In this document: in pieces, positions 6,761 to 42,921 of the stretch
Numbering within the stretch: the stretch's first letter is position 1
How the letters are laid out: each line of letters opens with the position of its first letter
DNA from: Eledone cirrhosa
Taxonomy: Eukaryota
DNA length: 64,000 nucleotides
Assembly: GCA_964016885.1 (NCBI GenBank)
Contig: OZ024745.1
Span: forward strand, 7,626,001 to 7,690,000
Reading direction: 5' to 3'
The notes under the pieces: model-generated
Seen by the model: the letters and a program-made list of their open reading frames with translations, nothing else
The model's database searches: none
Told to the model about the DNA's origin: nothing
Translations under genes and position numbers: made by a program

Positions 6761-7079
6761 GAGGGGGGGGGGGGGATAAAATAATGTACTAGTAAAGTAC
6801 TAGAGTTAGTTTATTCGACTATACCCCTCACCCTCACCCTATTGTCCCTCTCTTACAATTTAATAATTAATAAGCATGTATTTTTTACAGTGAGCAAAAC
6901 ATGTGTATGTGTGTGTGTCAATATATGATATATATGATATATATATATATATATATATATATATATATATATATATATATATATATATATATATATATAT
7001 ATATATATATATATATATACCACTACAGGAATTGAAGATTCAAGATCTTAGCGGTATGTCGTATAACCAATCTCTTATA

Positions 7080-7144
7080 ATATTTTATCTGATGAAAACG
7101 TACTGAAATACCATTGTACCTTTGAAATATGTATAATAAAATAT
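7080..7144 (+). ncRNA. Minimal type I hammerhead ribozyme motif in a Penelope-like pLTR fragment (7020-7282) between (TA)n tracts
   Basis: Stem I ATATTTTAT/ATAAAATAT, CTGATGA, stem II AAACGTAC/GTACCTTT, GAAA, near-palindromic stem III ATATGTAT, NUH triplet ATA. Confidence 0.7.
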
Positions 7145-8247
7145 ATACTTTGGTTAGGGTAATATTTCTCATTTATTAATATTTTGAATAATATTAAATA
7201 CTCCAGATAAAGACTGTAGAGTGCTTCTAATCTATTGTAAAATTGAATTCGTTGAATAATCAACGAACCATATAAACTTTTGGTATATATATATATATAA
7301 ATATATATATATATATATATATATATATAAATATATATATATATATATATATAAATATATATATATATATATATATATATATATATATAATATATATATA
7401 TATATATATATATATATATATATATATATATATATATATATATATATATATATATATATATATATATATATATATATACATATATATATATATATATATA
7501 TATATATATACACACACACACACATTGTGTGTGTGTGTGTCTGTGTTTCACTCTCTTTCTCTCTCTCTCTCTGTGAAATATCTAATCTAATCACACGAGA
7601 AGTCAACTTTGAGATGTATCAACATATTGAAATCCGTTATCAAACATTTAAAGAGAGTCTCAATCTTTGAATCACTGTTAGCCAAACACCGGAAACACAC
7701 ATATCTCTCTCTCATGGAAAGACTACGTTCAACTATTAACATTTAAACACTTTAAACCTTTTAAACGTAACATCATATCGATCTAAATACAACAACACAA
7801 ACAATCATTTAGTCTGAACTCCCAGCCAATTTCGATTTCAACCTACCAATACCTTCCTCATCCAATATAAATAGTTTCTAATAATCTAATCAATTGGAAT
7901 TGATTTCACCTCAACTACTGTAAACATATTTGAAATGACAATCTAAACACATTAAAGCTCATAACAAATAGCAAACAAACCAAGGAGCCACCCTGTCATC
8001 TTTGGACTTGCTAGAAAAAGTAACTAAATTCACACTCAAATCATTCTTTGTAGACATTCACATGGGTACATGACAAAAGACGGAGGAAAATCAGGGAATT
8101 TCCGACAAATGGTATTCCGATAGATGAAAATACTGTGATCGGAAGAAACGTGGTGTAGTAATGTGAGGGGTAGTAGAAGTTTTCTGTTGATTTGTCAGAA
8201 GTAAAATATAAGGAGTGAAGTGAGAGGAATTCAAAATGGAGTGAGAG

Positions 8248-9228
8248 TCGAGATCTGTCGAAAAAGAATCCGATCTTAGGCAGGAAAAAGAAAAACATTA
8301 CAAACTTAGTGGCGTTCAATTGCTAACCCTTTTCGAATAAGACCGCTTATGCCTCGACACACTCAACCTAGCAAACCTGCCATTATTCGGAACACGTGTG
8401 GAATGCTTCTTCCGAAATGGCTTTCAGCTCCGGCATCGCAGTCCACATGGCGTCCTTTCAGCTCTCAAGGAAGTCGGAAGGATCTACATGTAGAGGGTAT
8501 GGAGACTGGAGAATGAGCGAATTGCCAACCATTGACAAGAAACCTTAGATGAGCTGTGATGAATAAGACTGGGCATTGTCATGATGCAGCTGCCAGATTT
8601 GTGAGGCCCACAGATCCGGTATCTGGTACCAAACTACATCACGAAGACATCGTAGAATTTCCTGATATAACTCTTTTGTAACTGATCTTCTAGGGGTGTA
8701 TTCCTGATGGTCAATACCGCAGCAGTCCAACTACCAGCATCACCTTGATTCGCGCCTAACCAGCTTTGTTGGATCTTGGCCACATTGAATGCTTCCACTG
8801 TGATGACAGAGCTTTGGTTTCCGGGTGGTACCTGTATACCCTTGTCTATCTCTAGTTATTACGGTATTCAGGAACTAATGATCCTTGTTAGAAGTATTGG
8901 GCGAAATAAAAACGCGTGGAGTAAGTAGTACATCAGCTGACATGGTGACTGCCTGACAGCGACTGACGCATCCAGTGAGCTCACCCAAATCACGCATACA
9001 CAGGAATGTATGCGGCTCCACGTCATTACCTCCTAAGATGAAAACTAAAGAGAAATAATAACAGTTTGATGTAAACAAGTCAAAATGGCCGTTACTTATC
9101 TCTCACTGAACCTTCACTATTTTCTGCTTTTTCTTCTTTTTCCCACTCCCTCTCCATTAATACATTTAGTCTTTCTGTTTATTACCGTCAGGGTCTAAGT
9201 CGGAATTTATTTGTTCACAGAACATACT
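8248..9228 (-). mobile_element. Decayed, internally deleted mariner (Tc1/mariner) transposon
   Basis: ITRD.TRVYRYHPETKALSSQWK, WQLHHDNA, SPYPLHVDPSDF (resembles YSPDLAPSDF) and CVEA..SYFE; degenerate TIRs at about 8250-8280 and 9195-9228. Confidence 0.8.
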
Positions 9229-9329
9229 GGGTTTCAACATATGTCAACATTGATGACGATTCCTTGAGAAATTGCGACGTTGTTTTCGGACATCTTTTCA
9301 CACCTGTTATAATAGGTTATAATAAACAT

Positions 9330-9760
9330 TTCACAACATAAACATCCCACAATATAGTAAACACCCCACAATATAGTAAACATTTCACAATGTAGTAAAC
9401 ATTTCACAATATAGTAAACAATTCACAATATAGTAAACAATTCACAATATAGTAAACATTTCACAATATAGTAAACATTTCACAATACAGTAAACACCCT
9501 ACAATATAGTAAACATTTCACAATATAGTAAATACCCCACAATATAGTAAACATTTCACAATATAGTAAACACTCAACAATATAGTAAACATTTCATAAT
9601 ATAGTAAACACCCAACAATGTAATAAACATTTCACAATATAGTAAATATTTCACAATATAGTAAACATTTCACAATATAGTAAACACCCCACAATATAGT
9701 AAACATTTCACAATATAGTAAACATCCCACAATGTAGTAAACACCCCACAAAATAGTAAC
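9330..9760. repeat. 19-bp minisatellite
   Basis: Unit cacaatatagtaaacattt, about 22 copies. Confidence 0.95.
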
Positions 9761-39850: not shown

Positions 39851-40186
39851 CACACATACACACACACATATATATATTCATGTACCGTCACATTCAAACG
39901 TACATGGCCATATTATTTATTTATGTATATTAGATTCTTCACATACATACTCCCCCCTCTCTCCTCATTATCTTTATCCCTCTCCATCTCTCTCTCTCTC
40001 CCTTATATGTACGAGGCACAAACAGGAGGGTGGGGTGGGTGAATTCTCTGGGCACCCTTTCTCAAAGAGGGCGCCCTGTAGGAATAGCTTTAGACTCCCC
40101 TCCTAAAATCTAAATCTGGCCCCTTACACAATAGAACTACCAATAAAGCGGGTGTCGTCACAGTTGAGTGAACCAAGAAATTCTAA

Positions 40187-40420
40187 TTAATTGAAATTTC
40201 CTCTAGCCTCCTCCGCTATTTTCTGTTCCTTACCTGTAAGGGTTGTGAGATTCCAGGTTCCAATTGTCAAAGTTTGCTCCCATCTTTGTATGTCCATCCC
40301 ATGCCTCTTAGGGCAGGTCGCAGGCCCATCTCCAGTTTTTAGAGCATGAGATGGAGACTGCACTATATCTTTCAAACAAGTCCCTCTACATAAGGCCTGA
40401 ACACGTCCCTTGTTAACTCG
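40187..40420 (-). pseudogene. RTE-like LINE 5' fragment (start of the APE endonuclease)
   Basis: LTIGTWNLTTLTGK resembles the IGTWNVRTL APE motif. Confidence 0.6.
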
Positions 40421-40865
40421 TACGAAGGACGATGCCTTTGTTGTGTCTAGTTATATTCCAGTAGGTCTTTAGTGTCGTCTCTCGTCGGTCAACAATCTCA
40501 TACTTTCTTGGTTCACCAAATTCTATACATTATAATGACCACTTCTTGCAGCAAGGCACCCTTGGATAATTCCTTCACCTCAAGTCATTCGCCCGTGTAT
40601 ATGAGTGAATGTGTGTGTGTGTGTGTGTGTGTGTGTGTGTGTGTGTGTGTGTGTGTGTGTGTGTGTGTGTGTGCATGCGTTTGTGTGTGTGTGTGCGTGT
40701 GTACGTGTACCGTTTGAGGATGTATATTGTAAAGTTTGATGAGAAAATGGAAAGAGCGGTAGTTTAAGTAGGAAGTCTTTTACGACAGTTGTCGGTCAGA
40801 AATCGGGTGAATCAGTAACTCAGCCTGTTTCAGACATGTAACAACCTTCTTGTTCATTATTGCTC

Positions 40866-41046
40866 GTGGATTGGCAGTATCGGTAGAGGGTCGGACGCCA
40901 TGCTTTCCAGCATAGTTACGTTCTTTACGATCTGAGTTCAAATCCCGCCGAGGTTGACTTTGCCTTTCATCCTTACGGGGTCGATAAAATAAAGTACCAG
41001 TAATGCACTGGGTAATTGCTGGCCTTGTGCCTAAAGTAGAAACAAT
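40866..41046 (+). mobile_element. SINE family 2
   Basis: Target-site duplication attattgctc (40856-40865 and 41045-41054). Confidence 0.9.
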
Positions 41047-42826
41047 TATTGCTCATTATCTCCGATACTAAAGAGATAAAGAAAATATATAGCAATTCTC
41101 ACATACATATCAATACATTTACATATATCTATTTTAGTTGTTCTCTATTTACTTTCAGTATTTTACATACACAGATATACATACATTATATATATATATA
41201 TATATATATATATATATATATATATATATATATATATATATATATATATATATATATACCCGCCCTAGAATATATATATATATATATATATATATATATA
41301 TATATATATATATATATATATATATATATATACGTTTGAATTTGTAAAGCCAAGACAATGCAGGTATGGACTTAGAATAAAAAATGCAAATGCAAAAGAT
41401 ATTGTTGGCAATTAGTCTTTTACCTTAGATTTATTTAAATGTCCTTAATTTTCTTCTTCGGAGGGAAGTAAAGCGGTTAAATCAGTGTTCTAAATAGCTT
41501 ATATATATATATATATATATATATATCGGGAATTTTACCCGCCCTAGAATATATGTATATATATATATATATATATATAAACACACATATATGTGTGTGT
41601 ATGTAAACTCACAATACCCATACACCAATTCACTTACACATACACAAACAACATACATTCGTATACTATTAATTATTTTATATGATTTAATTCGTTTTTA
41701 AATTATATTTATTGATTAAATTCAAATATATACAAATAAGAATATGTATAAATATAAATATATACATACATACACACACATATATATATGGGGGGGGGGT
41801 ATTGATGTATATATTATATATGTGTATATATATATGTGTGTGTGTGTACATATCATATATAAATATATATACATAAATACAAATAAATAAGTATATATAT
41901 ATATATATATATATATATATATATATATATACATACACACACACTCATATATATATATAAATATATATATATACATATATATATATATATATATATATAT
42001 ATATATATATATATATACATACACACACACTCATATATATATATAAATATATTTATGTGTGTGTGTGTATACAGTTACACACGTATATTCCACTTTATCA
42101 TATTATATAATTATAGAGCGATATCAGGCAATTACTCTCCCAAAGGATTTCATGTTAAATTCAATTAATTTTATTTTAACTTGGCCAATAATATTAGCTA
42201 AAGAGACAGCCAACGTATAATTACATAGAATATAAAACAGAAACCAATAGAGTGTTATTGAAGTATGAAGTAGCTAAGCTAGGCCAAACATATTTTTCTA
42301 TATACATTTATCACTCTCAGGCAATTATAGTTTTCTGGTTACTTACTGAAATATAATACTTATTGTGATATATATATTAAGTTTGCATAAATCCTAACAC
42401 ATACACACACATACCTCACGCACACACGGACACACACACTGACACAGACACAAACACTCACACAGATACACAAACACTCACACAGACACACAAACACTCA
42501 AACAGACACACACAGACACTCAAACAGACACACACACACACACTCACACAGACATACACAAATATAGATAACTACTGTCTACAGTCTAAACAATTTTGTA
42601 TAATACACACATACTCACACGCGTATATTTTAATATATATGTGTGTGTGTATGTGTGTATGTGTGTGCGTGTATGTGTGTGTGTATGTGTGTGCACATAT
42701 ATATATATATATACATAAACAGACACACACATATTTATATATACGTACATAAACACACACACGCACACACCCACACATATAATTTTATTATTATATATAT
42801 ATATATATATATATATATATATATAT

Positions 42827-42921
42827 ATAGGAAAATGTTTACCCACTCTAGTGCCCTAAGTATTGAGTACTCTGCTGCGTTATGGTCCATCTGGTTCCTT
42901 ACCACACCTCCTTTTTTTTTT
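42827..42921 (+). mobile_element. Family A copy 5 (palindrome collapsed)
   Basis: An ATAGGAAAATG arm stub joined to the tail TTACCCACTCTA..TGGTTCCTTACCAC. Confidence 0.65.

What the first reader, a model, noticed from the sequence alone, without database searches (positions are those of the whole stretch)
7020..42921. Many sequence-unrelated fold-back elements with hammerhead motifs, all in (TA)n tracts
Seen: at least six unrelated sequences share one plan, (TA)n-[inverted arm]-loop-[direct arm]-tail-(TA)n: family A (5 copies), 17250, 19535, 20263, 34890 and 35718. Each has a complete or partial hammerhead core (CTGANGA..GAAA + palindromic stem III + NUH). Further HHR-like motifs without an inverted arm occur at 7080, 34004, 34335, 34713, 36841 and 38311. 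Established: Penelope-like elements (PLEs) carry minimal HHRs in their pseudo-LTRs and often have an inverted pLTR lacking the tail. Inference: a diverse radiation of very short, ORF-less PLE products (or retrozyme-like non-autonomous elements) targeting TA microsatellites, at about one per 3 kb. Standard repeat annotation would miss them or miscall them as MITEs.
Basis: partly seen in the sequence, partly recalled or inferred. Interest (0 to 1): 0.75.

Follow-up and report, generated by a model that had tools for sequence, protein, structure and literature searches.

The report
Penelope retrotransposon stubs in TA repeats
The palindromes are the short end-pieces of several Penelope-type jumping genes inserted in TA repeats, a known kind of genomic debris, but nearly all copies of the commonest family stop at one fixed point, which likely marks where its RNA begins.

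Summary
The fold-back arms are 97-99% complementary, and strict hammerhead motifs exceed shuffles: 3 vs 0 in the window, 82 vs 0-1 in 980 kb sampled across the genome.

Most families are not separate ORF-less elements. They are the 3' pseudo-LTR ends of coding Penelope-like elements (PLEs) found whole elsewhere in the genome. Family A, 35718, 7020 and 34713 lead to Hydra-type ORFs (A has an intact 724-aa ORF); 17250 and 34890 lead to Neptune-type ORFs. 20263 forms ORF-less 480-nt tandem arrays (retrozyme-like). No ORF was found for 19535, 34004, 36841 or 38311.

Inverted truncated copy, one-sided tail, hammerhead and (TA)n targeting are all published for PLEs, including an octopus Hydra family. 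The scan has noted this before on other DNA of this genome.

One extra result: 100 of 105 family-A arms end at or before one template position, whichever of two start sites they use. That position is an initiator-like hexamer in hammerhead loop II. This suggests run-off ('strong-stop') cDNAs joined head to head, untested for lack of RNA data. A second family showed no equally sharp wall.

The parts
7020..7284 (+). 3' end plus tail of a Hydra-type PLE; complete hammerhead 7089-7135
   Evidence: L226, L185: related ends beside Hydra-type ORFs
11872..12067 (-). Family A fold-back: tail arm on - strand, tail-less arm on + strand; 3' half of hammerhead at 11969-11991(-) and 12028-12050(+)
   Evidence: parent ORF in L106
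14885..15140 (-).
   Evidence: (15 loci in 98 stretches)
17250..17590 (-). Fold-back end of a Neptune-type PLE; arms 17286-17385/17491-17590; U3-A8 hammerhead variant 17405-17434; junction at a palindrome 17467-17487
   Evidence: full-length parent in L345
19537..20079 (+). Fold-back with a complete hammerhead in both arms (19595-19644 -, 19832-19881 +); tail 19940-20079; no ORF found
20264..20706 (-). Fold-back of an ORF-less family that forms about 480-nt tandem arrays elsewhere (retrozyme-like); hammerhead 20535-20565
24462..24638 (-). Family A fold-back
25952..26067 (-). Family A fold-back with a very short tail arm
33894..34154 (+). TA-anchored segment with a hammerhead-like motif 34004-34074 lacking stem I; no other copy in the sample; status open
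34245..34455 (-). PLE 3' end with hammerhead 34339-34366 (C3U in this copy)
   Evidence: (L187: weak PLE ORF match upstream)
34470..34560 (-).
   Evidence: L227, L128, L071; L350
34580..34865 (-). PLE pseudo-LTR with hammerhead 34713-34761 (stem I decayed)
   Evidence: L127: followed by the start of a Hydra-type ORF, 28% identity
34891..35412 (-). Fold-back end of a Neptune-type PLE; arms 34960-35116/35257-35412; U3-A8 hammerhead 35161-35191
35466..35647 (-). Family A fold-back (older subfamily)
35719..35901 (-). Fold-back end of a Hydra-type PLE; 3' half of hammerhead at 35821-35832(-) and 35855-35866(+)
   Evidence: (L182, L224, L174)
36484..36972 (-). Element with complete hammerhead 36840-36909; no ORF link found
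38262..38444 (-). Repeat with the 3' half of a hammerhead only (38314-38325); no 5' core and no ORF link found
41333..41500 (-).
42830..42915 (+). Family A tail only, no hammerhead part

Best explanation
These are 5'-truncated, head-to-head insertion products of several protein-coding Penelope-like retrotransposons (Hydra- and Neptune-type) sitting in TA microsatellites, likely made when the element's enzyme cuts a TA tract and primes two short cDNAs, one from each broken end. Shown: parent ORFs; hammerheads in the pseudo-LTRs; two fixed outer ends (with and without tail); junctions that differ between copies; matching arm haplotypes. Inferred: GIY-YIG cleavage at (TA)n; reverse transcription from two internal start sites on one RNA or on sister RNAs; A-tailing and microhomology joining of the two cDNA 3' ends. 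For family A the cDNAs likely run off the 5' end of an RNA that starts at an initiator inside hammerhead loop II (about 50%). The 20263 family is a non-coding tandem passenger that likely uses the same enzymes.
For: Family A continues into a 3.55-kb pLTR-ORF-pLTR unit. 1 of 20 long loci (L106) has an intact ORF; the others are broken or truncated. Its model (mean pLDDT 92.5) matches telomerase RT best (3du5, E 8e-8). The 17250 and 34890 parents hit Pfam RVT_1 and GIY-YIG. Of 22 two-armed A insertions from loci not fetched with A queries, 20 have exactly one tail; the tail-less arm reaches further in 13 and the tail arm in 6 (1 equal); arm haplotypes agree in 17 of 22 vs mean 4.2, max 10, for random pairing. 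Wall: 100 of 105 arms end within 143 nt of the tail end, 0 at 144-446, 5 longer. Among the first 100 listed genome matches, 25 of 30 head-to-head pairs have at most 48 nt between cores, 0 have 49-437, 5 have 438 or more. A TCAKTY hexamer (consensus recalled) occurs twice in 3,573 nt, once exactly at 143. Two internal RT start sites defining the tail, and a promoter inside the pLTR, are published (PMC11167929, PMC2377424).
Against: No ORF link for 19535, 20263, 34004, 36841, 38311 or 14880. Clade calls rest on motifs, not a tree. Pfam and PDB sequence searches found nothing for the Hydra ORF. Against the simple start-site model: in copies that hold the tail-ORF junction, 15 of the 18 loci that reach the wall pass it (about 13 of 15 once overlapping loci are merged; 12 of 30 end earlier), so long copies need a second, read-through or circular template. 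Family 35718 shows no equally sharp wall. Other families are too few or scattered. The initiator hexamer is no more conserved than its neighbours. 12 of 28 distinct parent hammerheads of A have a C3-A8 mismatch, so cleavage may not be needed.
Confidence: 0.88

Rival explanations
1. The family-A wall is a template boundary or stall (RNA fold or bound protein at hammerhead loop II) on long RNAs, not the RNA's 5' end; the A-tails come from slippage on the UUU run, as in telomerase repeat addition.
For: The RT is telomerase-like. The wall lies just past the 3' strand of stem II. A/T fillers reach tens of nucleotides in some copies.
Against: Long and tandem copies pass the same site repeatedly (15 of 18 loci; five units in one array). 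The wall is in a predicted loop. An initiator-like hexamer sits exactly there.
Confidence: 0.3
2. The inverted arm arises by self-priming (snap-back) of one cDNA or on an antisense template, as proposed for rotifer Penelope elements (PMC3846280, Discussion passage).
For: Arm haplotypes agree (17 of 22). Some junctions sit at palindromes (17467-17487; recurring spacing of 133 nt in 5 listed pairs).
Against: The tail-less arm reaches further upstream than the tail arm in 13 of 20 pairs, which a fold-back of the tail-bearing cDNA cannot give. Head-to-head joins of two different families exist (L034, L036), though these are 2 of 13 selected loci and none was clear among 50 unselected arms.
Confidence: 0.15
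3. The short fold-backs are self-propagating non-autonomous families (MITE-like or SINE-like masters) copied as whole hairpins.
For: Very high copy number (26,964 exact matches of a 24-mer). Some junctions recur. 20263 and perhaps 19535 lack ORFs.
Against: Junctions are diverse among 30 copies. Arms stay concordant. One end carries a tail, so there are no terminal inverted repeats. Coding parents exist for most families.
Confidence: 0.12

Closest known systems
Hydra clade of C-terminal-endonuclease PLEs, including Hydra-1_Obim of Octopus bimaculoides (Craig et al. 2021, PMC8557442; seen: passages, part 2 of text, section 11, supplement part 2 and search hits)
   Same: RW(K/R), DKT, CxCx5C linker, CxxC and CxH around the catalytic E and N, hammerhead near the 3' end, (TA)n insertion, inverted 5'-truncated copy.
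   Different: The family-A unit is about 3.55 kb (published ones are mostly under 3 kb); tail 78 nt; U3-A8 or C3-A8 core with a long loop II; tens of thousands of stubs ending at one site. Its hammerhead differs from the one listed for Hydra-1_Obim.
Neptune-type PLEs (motifs as described in PMC8557442)
   Same: [quoted passage not shown]
   Different: No tree was built; the 17250 parent copy has frameshifts.
Minimal hammerheads of PLEs (Cervera and de la Pena 2014, PMC4209133; parts 1-2 of 4 read)
   Same: Palindromic stem III, U3-A8 covariant, solo motifs and opposite-strand pairs 100-700 bp apart attributed to truncated PLEs.
   Different: Density here is about one intact motif per 12 kb (82 in 980 kb), far above the thousands per genome reported there; descriptors differ.
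Poseidon element PAc in vitro (Frangieh et al. 2024, PMC11167929; parts 1-2 of 4 read)
   Same: Two internal RT start sites that define the tail; both target strands cut and extended at AT-rich DNA; hammerhead cleavage not required.
   Different: In the parts read, that study does not address the inverted arm or a fixed 5' stop.
Metazoan non-LTR retrozymes (Li et al. 2026, 10.64898/2026.07.22.740005; part 1 of 5 read)
   Same: The 20263 family forms head-to-tail non-coding units, each with a type I hammerhead.
   Different: The window copy is a single fold-back; circular RNA was not tested.

Membership tests
EN+ Penelope-like element | Telomerase-like RT | tested here: met
   L106 ORF model: top PDB fold match is TERT, E 8e-8; RVT_1 hits for L291 and L310; no Pfam hit for the L106 ORF itself
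EN+ Penelope-like element | C-terminal GIY-YIG endonuclease | tested here: met
   Pfam GIY-YIG in L308, L301, L304, L317 (E 1e-7 to 2e-6) and L291 (2e-4); for family A by motif reading only
EN+ Penelope-like element | Partial-tandem pseudo-LTRs flanking the ORF | tested here: met
   L104-L123, L345
EN+ Penelope-like element | Inverted 5'-truncated copy, tail at one end only | tested here: met
   20 of 22 A pairs have exactly one tail; tails are 78-135 nt, longer than the 30-40 nt published
EN+ Penelope-like element | Hammerhead motif in the pseudo-LTR | tested here: met
   absent or half only at 38311
EN+ Penelope-like element | Self-cleavage of the hammerhead | not testable with these tools
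   needs in vitro assay
Hydra clade (family A) | RWK, DKT, CxCx5C, CxxC/CxH motifs | tested here: met
   read from the translation, (RWR in place of RWK), against section 11 of PMC8557442
Hydra clade (family A) | (TA)n insertion | tested here: met
Hydra clade (family A) | Generally shorter than 3 kb | tested here: not met
   unit about 3.55 kb; a tendency in the paper, not a diagnostic
Hydra clade (family A) | Phylogenetic placement with reference Hydra proteins | not tested
   reference proteins were not available as tool sequences
Neptune clade (17250, 34890) | CX2-5CxxC linker before GIY-YIG | tested here: met
Neptune clade (17250, 34890) | Phylogenetic placement | not tested
   no tree built
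Non-LTR retrozyme (20263) | Tandem units each with a type I hammerhead, non-coding | tested here: met
   7 units in L254 and 4 in L237; no PLE ORF match beside them; longest stop-free stretch 139 aa
Non-LTR retrozyme (20263) | Circular RNA intermediate | not testable with these tools
   no RNA holder listed (searched with family A only)
MITE | Terminal inverted repeats at both ends and a fixed internal sequence | tested here: not met
   tail outside the palindrome; junction varies between copies

The most novel reading that the evidence does not exclude
Most copies of family A are genomically fixed strong-stop cDNAs. Transcription starts inside the hammerhead loop of the pseudo-LTR, the RT starts at two internal sites just downstream, runs off the RNA's 5' end, adds As, and the two cDNAs primed from opposite ends of a cut TA tract are joined head to head. 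The stubs would then map both the transcription start and the RT start sites, and explain how PLE inverted repeats form.
Probability: 0.4. Interest if true: 0.65.

Novelty: new member of a known kind. Interest (0 to 1): 0.35.

Why it matters
As annotation: roughly one intact hammerhead per 12 kb, and on the order of 100,000 family-A loci (36 loci in 980 kb, extrapolated), are PLE debris and should be labelled so. As mechanism: how PLEs make inverted ends and tandems is called open in PMC8557442 and PMC2377424. The fixed stop and two start sites of family A give exact positions for a CAGE or in vitro test, and an intact ORF is available for it.

Tried and rejected
Rfam scan of the window: the 150 listed of 170 matches were low-score microsatellite-driven hits below gathering thresholds; no hammerhead family among them.

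First descriptor demanded a pair next to the core and missed true motifs; replaced.

Idea that arms fold back inside stem II by hairpin self-priming: rejected for A, because junctions vary and either arm can be longer.

Idea that the wall is the hammerhead cut site: rejected; the cut lies about 45 nt downstream of the wall and few arms end there.

Idea that the 257-nt tandem unit in L046/L047 is the master of family A: rejected; it is a short-circuited piece of the coding element.

Splice-acceptor or branch-point stop: considered; no shared upstream exon is seen at the junctions.

ORF hunt for 19535: 30 loci plus 12 extensions gave only long non-coding sequence.

Pfam and PDB sequence searches on the Hydra ORF: nothing.

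Wall test in other families: inconclusive.

Twin hairpins from earlier notes: ACUC/GAGU-type hairpins fold beyond the ends in 3 of 5 segments, none better than shuffles.

The TA-proximity figure (77 of 82) had no control for how common TA tracts are in this genome.

Literature searches listed no paper on strong-stop or twin-priming products of PLEs. The library lacks most subscription papers. Lunse et al. 2017 is recalled only, not seen. Supplements were seen only for PMC8557442 (part 2 and search hits).
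Full report
Observation. The window's first 43 kb is microsatellite-rich animal DNA in a 3.0-Gb genome. It resembles octopus genomes; that is recalled, not tested. The fifth A copy (42830) is tail only. A type I hammerhead descriptor found 3 strict motifs against 0 in 100 block shuffles, and 5 against a mean of 0.16 with looser stems. 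A revised descriptor found 5 C3-G8 motifs and 1 U3-A8 motif. The 3' half-motif alone was not clearly above chance (23 vs mean 8.7, max 25). Rfam gave no hammerhead among the 150 listed matches.

Genome-wide. In 98 evenly spaced 10-kb stretches the descriptor found 82 C3-G8 motifs with stem I of 3 bp or more, against 1, 0, 0, 0, 0, 0 in six shuffles, and 9 U3-A8 motifs against 0-2. 77 of the 82 have a (TA)4 tract within 250 nt downstream (no control run). By eye the motifs fall into a dozen or more sequence families with different but paired stems. Family A had 36 loci in 22 of 98 stretches. Exact probes gave 26,964 matches for A, 5,047 for 35718 and 410 for 17250.

Parents. A tandem array in L046/L047 exposed the sequence that follows A's tail. 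Searching with it led to long copies. The unit is about 3.55 kb: pseudo-LTR, ORF, long 3' UTR, pseudo-LTR. One of 20 long loci (L106) has an intact 724-aa ORF. Pfam and PDB sequence searches found nothing. It has 1,974 homologues at E up to 0.001, the best 120 at 37-50% identity. Its predicted structure (pLDDT 92.5) matches telomerase RT best. It carries the motifs given for the Hydra clade. That paper's supplement lists an octopus Hydra family inserting in (TA)n, with a hammerhead. The parent's hammerhead is complete, with a U3-A8 core in 16 and a C3-A8 mismatch in 12 of 28 distinct copies. The window copies lack its 5' half because they stop in loop II. 35718, 7020, 34470 and 34713 adjoin Hydra-type ORFs in other loci. 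34890 and 17250 are ends of two related Neptune-type elements (71-76% amino-acid identity) with RVT_1 and GIY-YIG hits. 34335 and 41333 adjoin other PLE ORFs. 20263 forms ORF-less arrays of about 480 nt, 7 units in L254 and 4 in L237. No ORF was found for 19535 (over 1.5 kb of non-coding upstream sequence), 34004 (no second copy in the sample), 36841, 38311 or 14880.

How the fold-back forms. Of 22 two-armed A insertions from loci not fetched with A queries, 20 have one arm with the 78-nt tail and one without. The tail-less arm reaches further upstream in 13 and the tail arm in 6. Arm haplotypes agree in 17 of 22, against 4.2 for random pairing. Junctions differ between copies and often hold A/T fillers or 1-3 nt overlaps. 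This fits two cDNAs started at two fixed internal sites, one from each end of a cut TA tract, then joined at their 3' ends. Two internal start sites and cleavage of both strands were shown in vitro for a Poseidon element. Head-to-head joins of A with another family (L034, L036) and same-strand switches (L032, L037) occur among 13 selected loci. None was clear among 50 unselected arms (31 own family, 8 direct to TA, 11 unassigned). Self-priming, proposed for rotifer elements, does not explain a longer tail-less arm.

The wall. Among 105 A arms (loci L001-L123, arms near locus edges, arms without a TA end, and duplicates dropped), 83 end 120-143 nt from the tail end, 17 end earlier, none ends at 144-446 and 5 are longer. 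Tail and tail-less arms stop at the same template position despite different lengths. Spacing of 30 head-to-head pairs among the first 100 genome matches agrees: 25 short, none between 49 and 437 nt, 5 long. Position 143 is the A of a TCAKTY hexamer (initiator consensus, recalled), which occurs twice in 3,573 nt. The predicted hammerhead cut is about 45 nt downstream and is not the stop. Drosophila Penelope transcription starts inside the pseudo-LTR (passages). I therefore favour run-off at the RNA 5' end (about 50%) over a template boundary (about 30%). Against it: copies holding the tail-ORF junction mostly pass the wall (15 of 18 loci that reach it, some overlapping), which needs a second class of read-through or circular templates. 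35718 is bimodal without a sharp wall. The hexamer is not specially conserved. No RNA data were available.

Comparison and verdict. Inverted truncated copies, one-sided tails, minimal hammerheads including U3-A8, opposite-strand motif pairs and (TA)n targeting are all in print. The scan's own notes report the same kind of elements many times in this genome, and one notes piled-up ends read as an RNA start in a Hydra-type family. The finding is real and largely explained: new families of a known kind. The fixed stop of family A is the part worth a bench test.

Noticed in passing
window 46526-63998: 27-nt satellite, about 647 copies at 93% match, preceded by a 28-nt satellite at 42981-46492.
   Followed up: no
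window 17843-18326 and 23675-24158: Two 96% identical fragments in opposite orientation, 5.3 kb apart; they read like the 3' end of an RTE-type LINE (recalled).
   Followed up: no
window 16480-16815 and 24729-25064: Second inverted pair, 95% complementary, 7.9 kb apart.
   Followed up: no
   Followed up: no
L046/L047 (257-nt units) and L097-L099 (274-nt units): Short-circuited tandem arrays of family A joining the start of the ORF back to the pseudo-LTR; could be copies of small circles.
   Followed up: partly
L032, L034, L036, L037, L344: Junctions between different PLE families within one TA-bounded insertion.
   Followed up: partly
L278 (1-11 kb left of the window): A Hydra-type ORF and a fold-back of a different PLE with a 638-aa ORF whose end matches window 41333-41500.
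   Followed up: partly
L285 3586-6730: 19535-related element with 3.1 kb of duplicated, inverted non-coding sequence and no ORF.
   Followed up: partly
window 29300-32000: LINE-like coding fragment on the - strand, seen only in part.
   Followed up: no
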